Part shown: in pieces, positions 12,054-19,501 of the stretch
Layout: each line of letters begins with the position of its first letter
Numbering within the stretch: position 1 is the stretch's first letter
Source: a virus
Lineage: Duplodnaviria; Heunggongvirae; Uroviricota; Caudoviricetes
Virus record (IMG/VR): IMGVR_UViG_2597490083_000002
Length of the DNA: 57,346 nt
Strand: one strand, 5' to 3'
Notes under the pieces: model-generated
What the model was told of the DNA's origin: nothing
Database searches by the model: none
Seen by the model: the letters and a program-made list of their open reading frames with translations, nothing else
Position numbers and translations under genes: made by a program

Positions 12054-12797
12054 CAGGCCTGTCTCCCCAGCTGTTCCCAGATATCCAGCGATGTATCGAT
12101 TGGCGCGAAGGCCATAATGAATGCATCAGCAACGTTTGGTGACGGTATCTCGCGTTTTGCGAGGTCTTTTTTACTTTCGACCATCACACGTCCGTTACGG
12201 TCGAAATCACGATGAGGTGTTGTCAGTTCCAGTTTCAGCTTTTCAAGCAACGGACAACGAGAATCTATGCTGATCAGCTCATCCACAGGATACTGTTCTC
12301 CGTTGTTAATGGCGTTAAACGTATTTCTGAAACGGTCAGCCACCATGCCTGAGCCTTAAGATTTGCGAAAAAGTCTTTGTTGGGGATGCCGTTGTACTCG
12401 TCATCTGGCTCATGCACACCAGCACCGGCGTTAAACCTCTGGTAATTCACACGTCGCGCGTATGCGTTCTCGCTCTTCCGGTCAGCGTTAATTTCAGAGA
12501 ATTTAGCACCGGCAGACGCACCAACACCGATAGAGTCGTAAACAATATCTGCTTCACGCTCCAGCGCCGCCTGATAAGTACGCTGGCAGCTCTTCAGTAA
12601 TTCATCTTCTTTGGCCTTCCATTCGTCGGCCCAGAAAACAACGGATCCGTGACGGTAAACGTTAGCGCACTTATCTGTACCACTGTCAGCCACGTCAAAG
12701 CCAATACGCTTTCTTCCACTGGGTTCGAAATTTAACGTTTTGTGCGCATCCACTGCGGCTTCTATCCAAGACAGTTTGATGATTGCTGGATTTGCCC

Positions 12798-13703
12798 CTA
12801 TATTTCCAGACATCTGTTATCACTTAACCCATTACAAGCCCGCTGCCGCAGATATTCCCGTGGCGAGCGATAACCCAGCGCACTATGCGGATGCCATTCG
12901 TTATAATGCTCGAACGCCTCTGCAAGGTTCTTTGCTGCCGTTAACCCGTCTGGTTTGGGCATGATACTGATGTAGTCACGCTTTATCGTTTTCACGAAGC
13001 TCTCTGCTATTCCGTTACTCTCCGGACTACGCACCGCCGTGTTCTTCGGTTCAAGTCCCAACATCCGGGCGAACTGGCGTGTTTCATTAGCCCGGTAGCA
13101 TGAACCATTATCCGTCAGCCACTCCACTGGAGACGACGGAAGATCGTTGCCGAAGCGGCGTTCCACCGCTCCCAGCATGACGTCCTGTACTGTTTCACTG
13201 TTGAAGCCGCCGGTAGTCACCGCCCAGTGCAGTGCCTCACGATCACAGCAGTCCAGCGCGAACGTGACACGCAGTCTCTCTCCGTTATCACAGCAGAACT
13301 CGAACCCGTCAGAGCACCATCGCTGATTGCTTTCTTTCACGGCCACTCTGCCTGTATGTGCCCGTTTCGATGGCGGTACAGCAGGTTTTCGCTCAAGCAA
13401 CAGCGCATTCTGGCGCATGAGCCGGTAAACACGTTTGGCATTGATCGCAGGCATACCATCAAGTTCTGCCTGTCTGCGAAGCAGCGCCCATACCCGACGA
13501 TAACCATACGTGGGCAGCTCTCCGATAACATGGTGTATACGGAGAAGCACATCCGTATCATCAGTGTGACGACTGCGGCGGCCATCCATCCAGTCATCGG
13601 TTCGTCTGAGAATGACGTGCAACTGCGCACGCGACACCCGGAGACAACGGCTGACTAAGCTTACTCCCCATCCCCGGGCAATAAGGGCGCGTGCGCTATC
13701 CAC
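12798..13703 (-). CDS. insD: IS2 OrfB (InsD)
   Basis: 301-aa DDE transposase ORF matching IS2 InsD. Confidence 0.9.
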
Positions 13704-14026
13704 TTTTTTGCCCGTCCATATTCAACGGCTTCTTTGAGGAGTTCATTTTCCATCGTTTTCTTGCCGAGCAGGCGCTGGAGTTCTTTAATCTGCTTCATGG
13801 CGGCAGCAAGTTCAGAGGCAGGAACAACCTGTTCTCCGGCGGCCACAGCAGTAAGACTTCCTTCCTGGTATTGCTTACGCCAGAGAAATAACTGGCTGGC
13901 TGCTACACCATGTTGCCGGGCAACGAGGGAGACCGTCATCCCCGGTTCAAAGCTCTGCTGAACAATTGCGATCTTTTCCTGTGTGGTACGCCGTCTGCGT
14001 TTCTCCGGCCCTAAGACATCAATCAT
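13661..14026 (-). CDS. insC: IS2 OrfA (InsC)
   Basis: Begins [26 protein letters not shown] inside ORF 13661..14071. Confidence 0.85.
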
Positions 14027-14735
14027 CTGTTCTCCAATGACTAGTCTAAAAACTAGTATTAAGACTATCACTTAAATAAGTGATACTGGTTGTCTGGAGA
14101 TTCAGGGGGCCAGTCTAATTGCCGCATCATCATCAGACTCCGGAACGCCCTCATACACATGTTTAAAACCATCCGGATCACGGCGTCGCGCCGCGTCGAT
14201 AACCTTAAGCATGGTGTCAGACAGAAACGGATTTTCGTCATAGTTAATTTTGCGGATGAGAGTGCCTTCGGGCGGATCAACAACGAAGTTGCGCCAGACG
14301 AAATCAGTAACAAGTCCGGGGTTGAATATGAACCAGCATTCCGAACCCTCTTTACGGATCGTTGGCTCCAGAATTTTCCACTGGTATTCCGTCAGTGCGT
14401 GGGCTTCTTCCAACCACAACATATCGATCCCCTCCAGTGACTTAATTTCTTCGATGTTGCGCCATAATCCATAAAAAACAAATTCCGAGCCAGTAACCCG
14501 GTTAATGATTTTGTTGTTCAGAATACGGAAACGGTGCCGCAGACCAAACCTGTCTATCTGAATTTTGAGCAGGGTATACACCGACTCTTCGATTTTATTC
14601 TGGATCTGACGGGCACAACAAAAACGCAGGGTGTATTTATTCGACAGAAATATGGCAATGCCAGCGGCATCCCATGATTTTGACGATGACCGACCACCAT
14701 AAAGCACTTTGTTACGTGCCCGCATAGTCCAGAAA

Positions 14736-15500
14736 CTACGTAAAGCCGGATTCAGCGTCGGTTTGGATGTCAGAGTAGAAGTCATTGAGGTCACGCTCTC
14801 CATTGCCATCATCAATACCTGCATCACGGCGAAGACGATCAGCCTCCAGAGACACCTTATCAGTGGCGGCCTTGCGGTAGGCTGTATCAGCAAATATTTT
14901 TCCTACCGTCGCAAGCGTGCCAACGATGGACTCAATACGAACTGTATTGCGCATCATTGCTTTCTCGGCGGCGCTGATATTTTCAATCAGCATCTTCCTT
15001 TCCTGGTCCCCATTAGCATCTTCCAGCGACACCAACCACCGACCAATATTCTCTGCAGCGACAAGGTTGTTAGCACGAAGGCGAAATAATTCGTCCTCGA
15101 GCGTCAACGCTTTAGCGTCCTCTATCACCTCATCTTTGAGCAGAAGGCGACGGGCATAACCACCGTGTTTTAATGCCTGCTGGTTACCGGGTTGGAATGG
15201 GTTAGTCGGGGGATCGGTACGCATTCCGCGTATCGGTTTCGTATCCGGTGTAGATTCTGTTTTTAGTTGCGTACTTTTTTGTGTAAGGCCAGTAATGGCA
15301 GGCTTTCTGCTGGTACGCACTTTCCTTTTTTGCGTACCATTTTTGCAAACCTGCGTACCGCCACTGCGTGCCCAATCAAGCTTTTTGGCCCTCTTCCTGA
15401 TAGCCCCTTCTGTAACGCCGTATTTCTCGCCTATATCACGGAGGCTAAGGACTCCGGCCCGGTATGCCGATTCGATGGCCTCCCAGTCCGGTTTTGCCAT
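14736..15500 (-). CDS. Phage terminase small subunit
   Basis: 254 aa with N-terminal HTH (LSLRDIGEKYGVTEGAIRKRAKK); directly upstream of terL. Confidence 0.7.
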   Translation of the reverse strand: MAKPDWEAIESAYRAGVLSLRDIGEKYGVTEGAIRKRAKKLDWARSGGTQVCKNGTQKRKVRTSRKPAITGLTQKSTQLKTESTPDTKPIRGMRTDPPTNPFQPGNQQALKHGGYARRLLLKDEVIEDAKALTLEDELFRLRANNLVAAENIGRWLVSLEDANGDQERKMLIENISAAEKAMMRNTVRIESIVGTLATVGKIFADTAYRKAATDKVSLEADRLRRDAGIDDGNGERDLNDFYSDIQTDAESGFT

Positions 15501-15694
15501 GATTATGCTTCCTGTGATTTACTGTTATCGCTGCCTGTCACAATAGGTTGCTTTAATTCTTCCTCATCACTCACTCCTGCGACGCTCCGTGGCAGGGCCC
15601 CCCACAGGAGTACCTTGTAAATGTAAGGTGTTTAAGCCTAAATTAAGTCGTATCACGGTTAAATAGCAAAGAAAAATTCACAGAAGGAAAGACA

Positions 15695-16207
15695 TTGATG
15701 GAGTGGATAAATGCTTTGATGAACTATTTTGTACTTCATCCATATCGCCTATGGGGGCTTCTTTTTATAATAGCGTTCACAAAATCCACTTTACTCATTT
15801 CGGCGATATTGCCACCAGCATCAATTATGATGGCCACTGTAATTACAGTCAGCAAGACGACTCTTTCACCATGGGAAGCTGGAATCACGGTCATGAGTGG
15901 CGCATGGTGCGGTACTATCGTTAATTACCATCTTGGTATAATAATTGGGCATATCCCTCAACTTGCATGTATAATATCGAGCCGTTCCAATACAATAGAA
16001 CGGGTTCGCCTTCAGTTGCAAAATAACTCTGTGTCAATACTTTTCACTTCGCGCTTTATCGCCGTGCTGCGTTACATTGCTCCTTTGGTGGCAGGAATGT
16101 TGCAACTTCATCCAGTGAAAGTGTATACAGTGAGTCTGATTTCAGCTGCTAGCTGGTCAGCACTTTATGTTGGTAGTTTTAGCTTCGTGTTGCCTTTTTT
16201 TAGCTAA
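15695..16207 (+). CDS. DedA-family-like small membrane protein (prophage moron)
   Basis: 170 aa, about 4 hydrophobic segments; LLISAILPPASI and SRFIAVLRYIAPLVAGM resemble the two DedA signature motifs; opposite strand to the phage late genes, between Rz fragment and terS. Confidence 0.5.
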   Translation: MMEWINALMNYFVLHPYRLWGLLFIIAFTKSTLLISAILPPASIMMATVITVSKTTLSPWEAGITVMSGAWCGTIVNYHLGIIIGHIPQLACIISSRSNTIERVRLQLQNNSVSILFTSRFIAVLRYIAPLVAGMLQLHPVKVYTVSLISAASWSALYVGSFSFVLPFFS

Positions 16208-16295
16208 ACTGCCCATAAAAAGCTCTTGCGAATCCAGCGTCCCCCATTCCTCTGACAACAGAATCTGATTTGAAGGATAATGAGTAAAATTACCG

Positions 16296-16541
16296 CTACC
16301 CCCCAAGGCATTGGATCCTGATGTACTCCTGAAGCATTCTCAATGCTGTCTGGTCGCTGATGATTCCGTCCCGGATACCGAGAACGTTTCGTCCAGCAAC
16401 TGGAGAGAGTTCGACGGTGGCATCATTGCCCATGCCGGAGGCGCTGGAGGTTTCGGCTGAGGATGGCACAGGGCATTTTCCTTTGACGAGCACCCGACCA
16501 CCATTATCAAGCTTGCGCCGAAGAGCATCATTTTCAGCTTT
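16296..16541 (-). pseudogene. Rz i-spanin, C-terminal fragment with embedded Rz1 o-spanin; 5' end removed by IS911
   Basis: ORF 16296..16493 ends ...VLGIRDGIISDQTALRMLQEYIRIQCLGG; overlapping +1-frame ORF has lipobox [17 protein letters not shown] and a proline-rich tract; both run into IS911. Confidence 0.7.
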
Positions 16542-16613
16542 TGAAGTGGCACACTGAATTTGGCCACCTGAACAGAGGTGATATGCTCACCTCAGAACAA
16601 CACAGGTGCTCCA

Positions 16614-17782
<1,169 letters not shown>

Positions 17783-17811
17783 CCACTTCAGTGGCGGTAA
17801 GACGGGGAATA

Positions 17812-18233
17812 TGTTTAACCTGATGTTGACCTCTAAAAAGCTGACAAAAACGGCAATTAACGAGGCGCTCCGGAGGATGAAAAAAGCAGGTCTGAACAAG
17901 TCTGAACTTGAGGCTTTTTTGCGGGATATGATTAACGGTAAGCAAAAGAGCTGGCTGGCGCATTGTACTGATGCAGAGGCGTTATGTATTGATCGGGTCA
18001 TAAGTGAGGTGCTGGCAGAGCATCCAGGATTGATTAGCGTCCTTCGGCAACGGTATGAGGGGCGGGGGATGACCAAATGCAAAATGGCTGAACTGCTGAA
18101 TGATGCACACCCGAAATGGAGTTTAAGAACCTGTGAAAGACGCATTGAGCATTGGCTAAAGGTGGCAGAATTTATTTTGTACAAACCAATGGTTATGGCT
18201 TTTGGTATAGAGAAAAAAGTTATTGCTTTTTGA
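17812..18233 (+). CDS. Putative late-gene antiterminator (Q-position protein), possibly 5'-truncated by IS911
   Basis: Sits directly upstream of the same terminator/tRNA arrangement that follows Q at 26880..27260, but the sequence differs from that Q; start taken at first Met after the IS911 junction. Confidence 0.4.
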
Positions 18234-18310
18234 CGTAAAAACTGCTTCAATTCTTGTACGCTTCGCAAAGCTGTACCGCGAGGCGAATAGCAGACATGGA
18301 CATTTGAAAG

Positions 18311-18338
18311 AGCCCGCTTTATGCGGTTTTTTTTATAC
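18311..18338 (+). terminator. Short hairpin plus T8 run downstream of the Q-position gene (tR'-like)
   Basis: gcccgc-ttta-tgcgg followed by tttttttt; weaker stem than the copy at 27347. Confidence 0.4.
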
Positions 18339-18422
18339 CTGAAAAACGGCACAGGACGTTAAACGTGCTGGTGATCAGATGAGTTTGCAGATGTGATGAC
18401 ATATGGTTATTATTCTGCCTCC

Positions 18423-18499
18423 GGCCCTTTAGCTCAGTTGGTCAGAGCGAGCGACTCATAATCGCCAGGTCGCTGGTTCAAGTCCAGCAAGGGCCACCA
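18423..18499 (+). tRNA. tRNA with CAU anticodon (Ile2/Met type, ileZ-like)
   Basis: Hand fold: acceptor GGCCCTT, anticodon loop CUCAUAA, T-loop TTCAAGT, CCA encoded. Confidence 0.8.
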
Positions 18500-18500
18500 A

Positions 18501-18577
18501 CCACCACTAGCTCATCCGGATAGAGCATCAACCTTCTAAGTTGACGGTGCGAGGTTCGAGTCCTCGGTGGTGGGCCA
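18501..18577 (+). tRNA. tRNA-Arg (UCU), argN-like
   Basis: Acceptor CCACCAC/GTGGTGG, anticodon loop CUUCUAA, T-loop TTCGAGT. Confidence 0.85.
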
Positions 18578-18579
18578 GC

Positions 18580-18654
<75 letters not shown>

Positions 18655-18657
18655 TAT

Positions 18658-18732
<75 letters not shown>

Positions 18733-19342
18733 GCGAGATTTGAGACGAAGGTTGTTATTTGCACTGACACAATATTGTGTGGGAATGTCTGACTCCTTAC
18801 CATCTCCTGTTCTGTGATGTTGTTTTGTTGCAGTTCCAGTGCTCTTTTTTCAGCACCAGAATGGTGCATTGTCGGTCAGGTTACGTAGTGAACCTCTGGC
18901 AGGGGACTGATAATGCATCATTCTGGTGTTGTAAATATCTCTTCGGACAACTTACAAAATATTCTAAGCAAACCCCGGGAACACACTCTTAACTGCCTTG
19001 GCTGGCGGTTTTTTGTACAGTGCTCGGTATGTGTGAGCTGGAAATCAGATTTTGCATGGACTGGAATCATGCTGTTATTTAGGGGCGAAGAACTGGCTTT
19101 TTCTTCCGCCTTCTCACCAGTAACGATTAGAAAAATAATGAAATGCCCCTCCGGGGAGGAGGACCGTAGAAAAAAGGACCCGCCAGCAAAAACATTGGGG
19201 ATGAACAGCTTTCGCTACTCAGATTGCTGGCGGGTAAAGTTCCTCATGAATTAAGAATGCTACGCGATCTTTTTTAATGGAAATGAAAATTATTGTCAAT
19301 TAGTCGTGCGTGTTTTTTCATACAATATTGGTAAAGGTGATT

Positions 19343-19382
19343 CAGGCCATCAGAGTTTTGCTGATGGCCTTTTTTCTTTCCG
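19343..19382 (+). terminator. Rho-independent terminator upstream of holin fragment
   Basis: ggccatcag-agttttg-ctgatggcc followed by ttttttctttcc. Confidence 0.5.
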
Positions 19383-19411
19383 ATAGCACAGGTCTGTCGG
19401 GGGGGCGGGAT

Positions 19412-19501
19412 ATGTATCAGATGGAAAAAATATCAACAGGCATTGCCTACGGCACCTCCGCCGGCAGTGCCGGCTACTGGTTTTTGCAGTGGTTGGATCA
19501 G
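19412..19501 (+). pseudogene. Holin, N-terminal 30-codon fragment cut by IS600
   Basis: [30 protein letters not shown] is near-identical to the N-terminus of the intact holin at 28063..28278; IS600 end follows immediately. Confidence 0.7.

What the first reader, a model, noticed from the sequence alone, without database searches (positions are those of the whole stretch)
15501..16295. DedA-family-like membrane protein encoded as a reverse-oriented moron between the lysis genes and terminase
ORF 15695..16207 is on the strand opposite to all neighbouring phage late genes and sits between an Rz fragment and terS, a position where lambdoid phages often carry accessory genes. It encodes a 170-aa hydrophobic protein with LLISAILPPASI and SRFIAVLRYIAPLVAGM, resembling the two DedA signature motifs, but with Thr/Ala where the conserved acidic residues are expected. 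A phage-borne DedA-like protein could affect envelope properties of the lysogen.
Basis: partly seen in the sequence, partly recalled or inferred. Interest (0 to 1): 0.55.

Follow-up and report, generated by a model that had tools for sequence, protein, structure and literature searches.

The report
Prophage-borne mini DedA membrane protein
A decaying Shigella prophage carries, backwards between its lysis and DNA-packaging genes, an intact host-derived gene for a very small DedA-type inner-membrane protein with its own conserved promoter-like element; the gene is real and under selection, but its effect on the bacterium is untested.

Summary
Window 15698..16207 (+) encodes an intact 169-aa protein; the true start is the ATG at 15698, not the TTG at 15695. 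It passes Pfam's curated threshold for the DedA/VTT domain (52.4 bits against 33.9), and RefSeq already names it "DedA family protein".

It is a 0.6-kb AT-rich cassette (41% GC; flanks 51-54%) lying antisense between terS and an IS911-truncated Rz. Prophages with 98.6%-identical terS lack it. An unrelated Citrobacter youngae lambdoid prophage has it in the same slot and orientation.

It belongs to a small Enterobacterales-only subfamily of 167-180 aa, which is only the DedA core. Both conserved arginines are kept. The "missing" Asp is not conserved in the nearest (YabI-like) clade.

dN/dS is 0.15-0.25. The exact protein occurs on at least 1000 Shigella contigs. No sequenced phage isolate carries it.

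Two new leads emerged. A PhoP-box-like direct repeat plus a -10 element travels with the gene. Chromosomal members sit next to Mg2+ transporter genes (mgtE with an M-box riboswitch, or corA).

Function and expression are inferred, not shown. This is a new variant of a known family, of moderate interest.

The parts
15698..16207 (+). Gene for a 169-aa minimal DedA/VTT-core inner-membrane protein (stop codon included). Lys29 codon is 15782-15784, Arg119 codon 16052-16054, Arg125 codon 16070-16072.
   Evidence: ORF listing and sequence. Pfam PF09335 52.4 bits, above the gathering score of 33.9. Alignment with 8 K-12 paralogs. dN/dS 0.15-0.25. AF2 model with pLDDT 75.5.
15623..16217 (+). Mobile cassette ('moron'): about 75 nt of leader, the ORF and about 10 nt of tail. 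This is the stretch shared at 82% nt identity with the Citrobacter youngae prophage copy. GC is 41%.
   Evidence: blastn of the window against L003-L005. Upstream and downstream alignments. Composition.
15629..15645 (+). Direct repeat TGTTTA-agcct-AAATTA. It is PhoP-box-like (9/12 to (T/G)GTTTA-N5-(T/G)GTTTA) and is positionally conserved at about -69..-65 from the ATG across the subfamily in Enterobacteriaceae. The regulator has not been identified.
   Evidence: Scans and anchored upstream alignment. Unbiased 5-mer sharing test. Box definition and architecture I from PMC3335776.
15659..15664 (+). -10-like hexamer TTAAAT, 13 nt after the repeat (12 nt in the Citrobacter copies). It is conserved as TTAAAT or TCTAAT in relatives.
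   Evidence: The generic sigma-70 scan found no hit of 9/12 or better here.
15684..15689 (+). Shine-Dalgarno-like AAGGAA, 8 nt before the ATG at 15698.
   Evidence: Read from the sequence. The GGAG/GGAGA-type purine tract is conserved in relatives.
14736..15500 (-). Terminase small subunit gene (flank). Homology with DedA-less prophages ends at its start codon.
   Evidence: phrog_370, 319 bits..
16296..16541 (-). C-terminal fragment of the Rz spanin gene, with an intact-looking Rz1 embedded at about 16340-16531 (flank). Truncated by IS911.
   Evidence: Pfam Rz1 74.7 bits. Homology to the L001 'lysis protein' ends at 16541.
16542..17790 (+). IS911 (IS3 family) that cuts Rz. Beyond it the prophage is inverted relative to E. 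coli FDAARGOS_943.
12785..14117 (-). IS2 inserted in the terminase large-subunit gene (context: the prophage is defective).

Best explanation
The feature is a real, intact gene under selection for a 169-aa inner-membrane protein of the DedA (VTT-domain) superfamily. A lambdoid prophage of Shigella/E. coli carries it as a self-contained 0.6-kb accessory cassette, or moron. The cassette lies antisense to the late operon at the lysis-terminase junction, the slot that lambda uses for bor (from memory).

Shown here:
- Family membership.
- It belongs to a small Enterobacterales-only subfamily that is chromosomal in Citrobacter, Kosakonia, Enterobacter, Hafnia, Serratia, Morganella and Arsenophonus. 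Ca. Riesia also has it, but its context was not examined. In this subfamily the Glu essential in YqjA/UptA-type proteins is invariably Lys, while both re-entrant-loop arginines are kept.
- The phage copies nest next to the Citrobacter/Kosakonia chromosomal copies.
- The cassette carries a conserved leader.

Inferred:
- The gene was captured from a Citrobacter/Kosakonia-like chromosome together with its native promoter. That promoter is a response-regulator-type direct repeat (PhoP-box-like) placed 12-13 nt upstream of a -10 hexamer.
- It is therefore expressed in the lysogen under host control (most likely low-Mg2+/envelope-stress signalling) rather than with the phage late genes.
- The protein acts as an extra DedA paralog. 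It would bind and move an anionic lipid head group (undecaprenyl phosphate or a phospholipid) through a pocket that is now tri-cationic (K29/R119/R125), without the usual carboxylate coupling, and so alter envelope or divalent-cation homeostasis of the host.
For: Family:
- Pfam PF09335 scores 52.4 bits against the gathering score of 33.9.
- PGAP names the gene 'DedA family protein'.
- YabI is the best-scoring K-12 paralog.

Core architecture:
- The AF2 model has pLDDT 75.5 and pTM 0.72. Its helices are 2-13, 15-30/32-35/41-52, 58-84, 87-109, 111-118/124-134 and 139-168.
- This matches the amphipathic helix / re-entrant loop / TM pseudo-repeat described in PMC7818093.

Subfamily:
- Only 12 of 4748 profile hits among 1.84 billion representatives reach E<=1e-30.
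- K is at the E39 site in all 19 sequences that cover it among the subfamily members and fragments. E is there in 126 of the other best hits. R119 and R125 are conserved.
- 70 loci were found among 185,579 species genomes, all Enterobacterales.

Functional importance of E39/D51/R130/R136 and of UptA E32/R112/R118:
- bioRxiv 10.64898/2026.09.20.752871, PMC7818093, PMC11474028.

Lipid-phosphate link:
- The next-best relatives are DedA-PAP2(-LssY_C) fusions.

Moron status:
- (boundaries, DedA-less relatives, GC).
- Two different terminase backbones carry the cassette in E. coli/Shigella.
- A third backbone carries it in C. youngae.

Selection:
- dN/dS is 0.23 between phage copies and 0.11-0.19 among chromosomal copies.
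- The identical protein is on at least 1000 contigs, although IS2 and IS911 have wrecked the neighbouring genes.

Promoter:
- A conserved repeat plus -10 element lies upstream of the gene in at least 8 different genomic contexts. In Hafnia it lies upstream of the MFS-DedA pair.
- 5-mer sharing has P of about 0.001 against shuffles.
- The spacing matches PhoP architecture I (PMC3335776).

Mg2+ link:
- mgtE with an M-box riboswitch is adjacent in the Enterobacter clade and in Arsenophonus, and lies three genes upstream in Hafnia. corA is adjacent in Morganella.
- DedA mutants are rescued by Mg2+/Ca2+ (PMC10846249).
Against: - No expression data were available. The generic sigma-70 scan finds no 9/12 promoter upstream and no intrinsic terminator.
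- The Shigella copy of the repeat has a 1-nt insertion and only 9/12 matches to the PhoP box. The motif could equally be an ArcA- or PmrA-type site. The search pattern was derived post hoc.
- Scores against experimentally defined DedA equivalogs are far below cutoff: PRK10847 30.7 against 236, UptA models 16-19.5 against 250-300. No known substrate can therefore be transferred.
- The Glu-to-Lys change removes a residue required for YqjA function and for full C55-P binding by UptA. The transport chemistry may be different or absent.
- Mg2+-transporter synteny is missing in Kosakonia, Citrobacter, Entomohabitans and reduced Arsenophonus. The gene itself is not downstream of the M-box.
- The surrounding prophage is defective, so retention could partly reflect clonal expansion of Shigella lineages.
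Confidence: 0.6

Rival explanations
1. The gene is a superinfection-exclusion or anti-phage membrane protein. The prophage expresses a small polytopic inner-membrane protein to block DNA entry, or to alter UndP-linked surface glycans used as receptors by competing phages.
For: It occupies a classical moron slot and is antisense to the late genes, so it would be expressed in the lysogen. It is an inner-membrane protein. It is linked to the prophage in three different backbones.
Against: There is no hit in PADLOC. The only PHROG hit is weak and of unknown function. The subfamily is mostly chromosomal. It is kept in obligate endosymbionts with 0.57-0.93 Mb genomes, which argues for a housekeeping envelope role rather than defence. 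No sequenced phage isolate encodes it.
Confidence: 0.12
2. The gene is a divalent-cation (Mg2+) homeostasis factor rather than a lipid translocase. The subfamily would work with, or substitute for, Mg2+ channels. The prophage copy would help the host under Mg2+ limitation inside host cells.
For: Chromosomal members lie next to Mg2+ transporters of two unrelated families: mgtE with an M-box riboswitch (112 and 108 bits) and corA (189 bits). A perfect PhoP box lies in the shared Enterobacter intergenic region, and a PhoP-like box lies upstream of the gene itself. The literature links DedA proteins to divalent-cation homeostasis and Mg2+ uptake (PMC10846249).
Against: The adjacency is not universal. 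The mgtE linkage may stem from a single ancestral arrangement. A tri-cationic pocket (K29/R119/R125) is a poor site for a cation. The phage cassette carries no transporter partner. This reading overlaps with the best explanation at the level of regulation.
Confidence: 0.15
3. The gene is silent hitch-hiking DNA. A host gene was picked up by illegitimate recombination, is not expressed or useful in Shigella, and persists only because the defective prophage is fixed in successful clones.
For: The prophage is decaying, with IS2 in terL, IS911 in Rz and an inversion. No strong sigma-70 promoter or terminator was found. The Shigella copy is the most diverged of its clade, and its repeat element carries a 1-nt insertion. 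Only 6 of 5426 complete E. coli genomes have it.
Against: The reading frame is intact and identical on at least 1000 contigs, while its neighbours are disrupted. dN/dS is 0.15-0.25, including 0.23 between the two phage-borne lineages. All 34 subfamily-invariant residues are retained. The cassette has spread to at least three phage backbones in the same slot and orientation.
Confidence: 0.1
4. The gene is a lysis-timing accessory: a membrane protein that modulates holin, endolysin or spanin function.
For: It lies immediately downstream of Rz/Rz1 in every phage-borne instance, and next to the lysis cassette in C. youngae too.
Against: It is on the opposite strand to the late operon, so late transcription runs antisense through it. 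The lysis cassettes it accompanies are unrelated: RrrD with a class II holin in one case, a GH19 endolysin with holin_8 in the other. Most family members are chromosomal, with no lysis genes nearby.
Confidence: 0.03

Closest known systems
E. coli YabI and the YabI-like / DedA-PAP2 fusion clade of the DedA superfamily (PF09335)
   Same: YabI is the best-scoring K-12 paralog (39.9 bits). After the subfamily itself, members of this clade are the best-scoring proteins in the 1.84-billion-protein search. They share the VTT core and both re-entrant-loop arginines. Like this protein, they lack the Asp that YqjA has at position 51.
   Different: YabI-like proteins keep the Glu (FLESL / SESLG) and Gly (PG), where this subfamily has Lys (KST) and Pro (PPAS). 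They also carry extra C-terminal TM helices or PAP2/LssY_C domains (254 aa, or 450-700 aa). Identity to YabI is only about 22%.
YqjA/YghB (E. coli) and UptA (B. subtilis): the experimentally studied DedA proteins (alkaline and temperature tolerance; undecaprenyl-phosphate recycling)
   Same: The fold and motif positions are the same. R130/R136 of YqjA correspond to R119/R125, and S52 corresponds to S42. The arginines are needed for function and for C55-P binding.
   Different: E39 is replaced by Lys29 and D51 by Ala41. E39A/D51A YqjA is non-functional, and UptA E32A binds about 30% less C55-P. The protein has no flanking TM helices and is about 50 aa shorter. NCBIfam equivalog scores are far below cutoff.
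Lambda bor and other lambdoid morons at the lysis-terminase junction (from memory, not tested here)
   Same: A single small gene in opposite orientation to the late operon, just downstream of Rz. Its composition is atypical (AT-rich). It is presumably expressed from the prophage to change a host envelope property.
   Different: Bor is an outer-membrane lipoprotein with no relation to DedA. Here the gene is a polytopic inner-membrane protein with clear chromosomal orthologues and a host-type regulatory element.
PhoP-activated 'architecture I' promoters (mgtA, phoP, slyB, pmrD; PMC3335776)
   Same: A direct repeat with 11-bp periodicity resembling (T/G)GTTTA-N5-(T/G)GTTTA. It is in direct orientation, overlaps the -35 position and lies 12-13 nt upstream of a -10-like hexamer.
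   Different: Only 9-10 of 12 positions match, and the half-sites are mostly GTTGA/ATTGA. Binding by PhoP or any other regulator has not been tested. ArcA- or PmrA-type sites are similar in sequence.

Membership tests
DedA / VTT-domain superfamily (Pfam PF09335) | Profile HMM match above the curated gathering score | tested here: met
   VTT_dom 52.4 bits against 33.9, E 9.3e-14, covering profile positions 3-121 of 123. All relatives carry PF09335.
DedA / VTT-domain superfamily (Pfam PF09335) | [quoted passage not shown] | tested here: met
   The AF2 model (pLDDT 75.5, pTM 0.72) has helices 2-13 | 15-30, 32-35, 41-52 (break at P39-P40) | 58-84 | 87-109 | 111-118, 124-134 (break at 119-123) | 139-168. 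This rests on a prediction only. No solved DedA structure exists to compare with.
DedA / VTT-domain superfamily (Pfam PF09335) | Two conserved arginines in the second re-entrant loop (YqjA R130/R136; UptA R112/R118) | tested here: met
   R119 and R125 align with them. Both are invariant in the subfamily and present in 136 of the 150 best hits.
YqjA/YghB/UptA-type (carboxylate-dependent) DedA proteins | Membrane-embedded Glu in the first re-entrant loop (YqjA E39; UptA E32) | tested here: not met
   Lys29 occupies the site. K is invariant in the subfamily, while 126 of the other best-scoring DedA proteins have E.
YqjA/YghB/UptA-type (carboxylate-dependent) DedA proteins | Asp after the PG turn (YqjA D51) | tested here: not met
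   Ala41 (PPAS) occupies the site. This Asp is also absent from YabI and from most of the nearest relatives, so it is not diagnostic for the superfamily.
YqjA/YghB/UptA-type (carboxylate-dependent) DedA proteins | Match to NCBIfam equivalog models (PRK10847; UptA NF052604/NF052605) at their cutoffs | tested here: not met
   30.7 bits against 236; 19.5 against 250; 16 against 300.
YqjA/YghB/UptA-type (carboxylate-dependent) DedA proteins | Complements yqjA yghB or uptA mutants; binds C55-P | not testable with these tools
   Needs genetics and native mass spectrometry.
Phage moron (accessory gene cassette in a prophage) | Present or absent between otherwise near-identical phage backbones, with sharp boundaries | tested here: met
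   Prophages with 98.4-98.6% identical terS lose homology at the terS start codon and lack the gene. Cassette boundaries are 15623 and 16217 against C. youngae.
Phage moron (accessory gene cassette in a prophage) | Atypical composition relative to the flanks | tested here: met
   GC is 41.2% against 51.1% (terS), 54.5% (Rz fragment) and 51.8% (window).
Phage moron (accessory gene cassette in a prophage) | Own promoter and terminator; expression from the repressed prophage | tested here: inconclusive
   The generic scan found no sigma-70 match of 9/12 or better and no intrinsic terminator. A conserved direct repeat plus -10-like element does travel with the gene. No expression data were available.
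PhoP regulon promoter (architecture I) | PhoP box (T/G)GTTTA-N5-(T/G)GTTTA in direct orientation about 12 nt upstream of the -10 hexamer | tested here: inconclusive
   The window has TGTTTAagcctAAATTA (9/12), 13 nt before TTAAAT. The Citrobacter copies score 9-10/12 at 12 nt. The background rate of 9/12-or-better matches is about 2 per kb. Binding was not tested.

The most novel reading that the evidence does not exclude
The 'KST/PPAS' mini-DedA proteins would be a functionally distinct class of DedA protein. In this class the charge-reversed first re-entrant loop (Glu to Lys) creates a carboxylate-free, tri-cationic site. The class would belong to the low-Mg2+ (PhoPQ-type) envelope response of Enterobacterales, acting alongside MgtE/CorA. 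Lambdoid phages would have mobilised this module, promoter included, into Shigella and E. coli. There it would act as a lysogenic-conversion factor for envelope remodelling, for example undecaprenyl-phosphate supply for lipid A or O-antigen modification and tolerance to antimicrobial peptides during intracellular life.
Probability: 0.15. Interest if true: 0.7.

Novelty: new variant of a known kind. Interest (0 to 1): 0.42.

Why it matters
DedA proteins are emerging as lipid-carrier (undecaprenyl-phosphate) and phospholipid translocases. They underlie polymyxin resistance, alkaline tolerance and divalent-cation homeostasis, but no structure exists and their mechanism is debated.

This subfamily is a natural experiment. 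It is the bare core of the fold, with the supposedly essential glutamate replaced by lysine. It is nevertheless conserved under purifying selection, even in 0.57-Mb endosymbiont genomes.

Its presence on prophages of Shigella and Citrobacter shows that envelope-lipid machinery can be moved by phages as a ready-to-use cassette with host-type regulation. I found no such gene in 50,697 phage genomes, among the phage proteins of BFVD, or in the literature searched.

If the gene is expressed under PhoPQ-type control, it would be a candidate fitness or virulence modifier in Shigella. It would also be a compact model protein for DedA biochemistry. If it proves silent, it is simply an annotated hitch-hiker.

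Tried and rejected
Searches that found nothing useful:
- PDB sequence search and Foldseek against PDB. No DedA structure is solved, and the hits are noise.
- The afdb50 fold library was unavailable.
- BFVD. The only weak hit is a giant-virus 'SNARE-associated' protein (E 0.5), and no phage protein matched.
- blastn and tblastn against 50,697 phage records. No subfamily member was found. The nine weak hits (30% identity or less) are canonical dedA on what look like host contigs.
- PADLOC. No defence-system model matched.
- Rfam on the cassette. There is no riboswitch or leader. The M-box found in relatives belongs to mgtE, not to this gene.
- Generic promoter and terminator scan. Nothing convincing lies upstream or downstream. 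The two + strand 10/12 hits lie inside or after the ORF.
- Literature searches for phage- or prophage-borne DedA, 'moron', and the RefSeq accession. Nothing was found; the 'moron' hits were the author name Morona.

Models and hits set aside:
- The first AF2 model, from 14 sequences, was too poor to use (pLDDT 57.8). It was redone with 56 sequences.
- IMG/VR hit L111 (73% identity) was rejected as phage-borne. The gene lies in host DNA just outside the left end of a Mu-like prophage.
- The PLSDB 'plasmid' hit (C. freundii, 74%) was rejected as a true plasmid gene. The record carries icd, rluE, mnmA and purB, and the gene sits next to a DinI/ars/Lom prophage remnant at icd.
- The antisense ORFs inside the gene (49-52 aa) have no support.

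Ideas considered and downgraded:
- A universal functional partner was sought by neighbour clustering. Apart from Mg2+ transporters in some lineages, none recurs.
Only the Glu site is informative.
Full report
**1. The observation**

Window 15695..16207 (+) is an open reading frame of 170 codons from a TTG. Its neighbours are all on the minus strand:
- the terminase small subunit, 14736..15500 (phrog_370, 319 bits);
- an N-terminal fragment of the large subunit, 14102..14893 (Pfam Terminase_3, 133 bits), cut by IS2;
- the C-terminal part of Rz, 16296..16541, with Rz1 embedded (Pfam Rz1, 74.7 bits).

Homology with the intact 'lysis protein' of E. coli FDAARGOS_943 stops at 16541, where an IS911 starts. 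Beyond the IS the prophage is inverted relative to that genome.

The real start is the ATG at 15698, giving 169 aa. Relatives are 167-169 aa long and begin MEW/MAW. One Kosakonia copy has TTC where Shigella has TTG.

**2. Family**

The protein passes Pfam's gathering score for the VTT (DedA) domain: 52.4 bits against 33.9, E 9.3e-14, covering nearly the whole profile. NCBI's pipeline already calls it 'DedA family protein', WP_011069285.1. It scores far below the cutoffs of the experimentally anchored NCBIfam models: PRK10847 30.7 against 236, and the UptA models 16-19.5 against 250-300.

I fetched the eight K-12 paralogs from NC_000913.3 and aligned them. YqjA E39 aligns with Lys29, G50 with Pro40, D51 with Ala41, S52 with Ser42, R130 with Arg119 and R136 with Arg125. 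YabI is the best-scoring paralog (39.9 bits).

E39, D51, R130 and R136 are the residues whose mutation inactivates YqjA (bioRxiv 10.64898/2026.09.20.752871; PMC7818093). In B. subtilis UptA the equivalent E32, R112 and R118 contribute to undecaprenyl-phosphate binding, and E32 is modelled as hydrogen-bonded to R118 (PMC11474028).

An AlphaFold2 model from 56 sequences (pLDDT 75.5, pTM 0.72) gives two repeats of amphipathic helix, broken (re-entrant) helix pair and long TM helix. Nothing flanks them on either side. This is the bare core described for the family. No solved structure exists for comparison.

**3. A distinct small subfamily**

A profile of 14 relatives was searched against 1.84 billion representative proteins.
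- It found 4748 DedA proteins at E<=1e-3, but only 12 at E<=1e-30.
- Scores then fall to about 85-94 bits, for YabI-like proteins and 450-700-aa fusions.

Pfam shows those fusions to be DedA-PAP2, often with LssY_C.

I aligned the best 150 hits to the profile.
- All 19 subfamily sequences that cover the site have Lys at the E39 position, in the signature KST...LPPAS.
- 126 of the remaining sequences have Glu there.
- The D51 position is A, S, T or V in most of the nearest clade, YabI included, so only the Glu-to-Lys change is unusual.
- Both arginines are near-universal.

The subfamily is confined to Enterobacterales. A scan of 185,579 species genomes gave 70 loci: Shigella/E. coli, Citrobacter, Kosakonia, Enterobacter, Lelliottia, Huaxiibacter, Entomohabitans, Morganella, Proteus and Arsenophonus. 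Cluster look-ups add Hafnia/Obesumbacterium, Serratia, Proteus hauseri and Ca. Riesia, which has a 0.57-Mb genome. Retention in such reduced genomes argues that the Lys form is functional, not degenerate.

**4. It is a moron**

Only 6 of 5426 complete E. coli genomes carry the DNA. In them, and in 14 IMG/VR prophage contigs, it always lies next to the same lysis cassette (class II holin, RrrD, Rz). That cassette is joined to two different terminase modules.

Prophages whose terS is 98.4-98.6% identical lose homology exactly at the terS start codon. In the slot they have nothing or a 61-aa same-strand ORF.

The closest phage-borne relative is in Citrobacter youngae (78% aa identity). It sits in the same slot and the same reverse orientation, but in a lambdoid prophage with a GH19 endolysin, other holins and a lambda-type Nu1/GpA terminase. 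Nucleotide similarity between the two runs from 15623 to 16217 at 82% identity. That is 75 nt upstream to 10 nt downstream of the ORF.

The cassette is 41% GC, against 51-54% in its flanks.

Chromosomal, non-phage copies at 72-74% identity occur in several contexts:
- C. meridianamericanus, between cytochrome b561 and a 2-thiouracil desulfurase;
- Kosakonia, between an EF-G paralog and an L,D-transpeptidase;
- C. amalonaticus at 57% identity, between an MCP and a porin.

The C. youngae phage copy is closer to these chromosomal copies (82-84% aa identity) than to the Shigella copy. This points to capture from a Citrobacter/Kosakonia-like chromosome.

No record among 50,697 phage genomes carries a subfamily member. 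No bacteriophage protein in BFVD has the fold. I found no paper on a phage-borne DedA.

**5. Selection**

Nei-Gojobori dN/dS values:

| Comparison | dN/dS |
|---|---|
| Two phage lineages (Shigella vs C. youngae) | 0.23 |
| Phage vs chromosomal copies | 0.15-0.25 |
| Among chromosomal copies | 0.11-0.19 |

The exact 170-aa protein is recorded on at least 1000 contigs of S. flexneri, S. sonnei, S. dysenteriae and E. coli. Meanwhile the adjacent terL and Rz are destroyed by IS elements. The gene is therefore maintained, with constraint perhaps slightly relaxed on phages.

**6. Expression signals**

A generic scan finds no sigma-70 promoter of 9/12 or better upstream and no intrinsic terminator. 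Rfam finds nothing in the cassette.

Anchoring upstream regions at the start codon shows a conserved element. Its form is (T)GTT[G/T]A-N6-ATT[G/T/A]A, followed after 9-13 nt by T[T/C][A/T]AAT. In the window the repeat is TGTTTAagcctAAATTA (15629-15645) and the hexamer is TTAAAT (15659-15664).

The element is present upstream of the gene in these contexts:
- both phage lineages;
- C. meridianamericanus;
- C. amalonaticus;
- a Citrobacter-like locus flanking a Mu-type prophage;
- two different Enterobacter contexts;
- Lelliottia and Huaxiibacter.

In Hafnia it lies upstream of an MFS gene that precedes the DedA gene by 22 nt.

Synonymous sites between these lineages are saturated (dS above 1 for C. 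amalonaticus). Intergenic conservation therefore implies function.

An unbiased 5-mer test on ten upstream regions found GTTGA, AAATA and AATAG each shared by 8 of 10. Shuffled sets averaged a maximum of 5.1, and P is about 0.001.

The layout is a direct repeat with 11-bp periodicity, in direct orientation, 12-13 nt upstream of a -10 hexamer. This is that of PhoP 'architecture I' promoters (PMC3335776). The match to the PhoP box is 9-10 of 12. The background rate for matches of 9/12 or better is about 2 per kb, so sequence alone does not identify the regulator. My regular expression was derived after seeing the alignment.

**7. Neighbourhood of chromosomal members**

- In Enterobacter, Lelliottia and Huaxiibacter the gene is divergent from an mgtE-family gene.
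- In the Arsenophonus nasoniae group mgtE follows it.
- In Hafnia mgtE is three genes away.
- These mgtE genes carry M-box Mg2+ riboswitches (RF00380, 112 and 108 bits).
- The Enterobacter intergenic region also holds a perfect 12/12 PhoP box.
- In Morganella the convergent neighbour, 10 nt away, is corA (189 bits).
- Other lineages show no such neighbour.

DedA mutants of Klebsiella are rescued by Mg2+/Ca2+, and a Xanthomonas DedA protein has been tied to Mg2+ uptake (PMC10846249).

**8. Most likely mechanism**

Shown:
- It is a DedA-superfamily minimal-core membrane protein of a Lys-type subfamily.
- It is a mobile cassette that phages carry into Shigella, E. coli and Citrobacter.
- It is under purifying selection.
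- It comes with a conserved upstream element.

Inferred:
- It is transcribed in the lysogen from that element under a host response regulator, most plausibly of the PhoP type.
- It acts as an additional DedA paralog on an anionic lipid head group. The arguments are the retained arginine pair, the neighbouring DedA-PAP2 fusion clade and the known C55-P and phospholipid roles of the family.
- Lys29 replaces the carboxylate that normally pairs with the second arginine, which gives a different or uncoupled transport chemistry.

**9. Novelty and verdict**

The gene is already annotated as a DedA family protein, so family identity is not new. To my knowledge, and within the searches run, four points are new:
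- the recognition of a Glu-to-Lys minimal-core subfamily;
- its mobilisation by lambdoid phages into a fixed slot;
- the promoter element that travels with it;
- the Mg2+-transporter synteny.

I rate it a new variant of a known kind, with interest 0.42.

Noticed in passing
L006:9673-9842 (-), L009:10810-10979 (+), L078:8520-9467 (-), L093:1365-2378 (-): Chromosomal members of the short DedA subfamily lie next to Mg2+ transporter genes of two unrelated families. These are mgtE with an M-box riboswitch (Enterobacter clade, Arsenophonus nasoniae group, Hafnia) and corA (Morganella). In Enterobacter a perfect PhoP box, TGTTTAAGAACGGTTTA, lies in the shared intergenic region.
   Followed up: partly
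window 15629-15664; also L023, L025, L027, L033, L042, L054, L056, L111 at about -70..-30 from the start codon; L093:3380, L094:3245: A conserved direct repeat plus -10-like element (PhoP-box-like architecture) travels with the gene through phage and chromosomal contexts. In Hafnia it sits upstream of an MFS gene that forms an apparent operon with the DedA gene.
   Followed up: partly
window 12785-14337: The IS2 that splits the terminase large-subunit gene sits 215 bp away from the IS2 site in the otherwise 99.5-99.8% identical prophage of E. coli FDAARGOS_943 (L001). Each copy appears to have its own 5-bp target duplication. This suggests independent IS2 insertions, or a local hop, in the same gene.
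   Followed up: no
window 16542-19501: IS911 truncates Rz at 16541/16542. Beyond it the sequence matches the reference prophage in inverted orientation, starting in the DUF1133/Q-like region. The N-terminal part of Rz, RrrD and most of the holin gene are missing at this junction.
   Followed up: partly
window 18423-18732 (+): A prophage tRNA cluster. ARAGORN calls Met(CAT), Arg(TCT), Thr(TGT) and Gly(TCC). RefSeq annotates the first of these as tRNA-Ile in the related E. coli prophage, presumably a lysidine-modified CAT anticodon.
   Followed up: no
L002:7377-7925 (+): In E. coli RMDEC465 a second reverse-oriented gene of unknown function (182 aa, phrog_30882, no PADLOC hit) lies between the DedA cassette and a different terS. 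Together they form a two-gene antisense island. An 'anti-CBASS Acb1 family' gene follows the terminase.
   Followed up: partly
L112 (NZ_CP056259.1 29515-44021): An 82-kb Citrobacter freundii 'plasmid' in PLSDB carries housekeeping genes (icd, rluE, mnmA, hflD, purB). The DedA gene there sits beside a DinI/ars/Lom prophage remnant next to icd. The record looks like a chromosomal segment rather than a plasmid.
   Followed up: no
L093:6035-6607 (-), L094:5979-6554 (-): In Hafnia a second, different DedA paralog (190 aa) lies two genes downstream of the Lys-type one. In L093 it is followed by a Na+/Ca2+-exchanger family gene.
   Followed up: no
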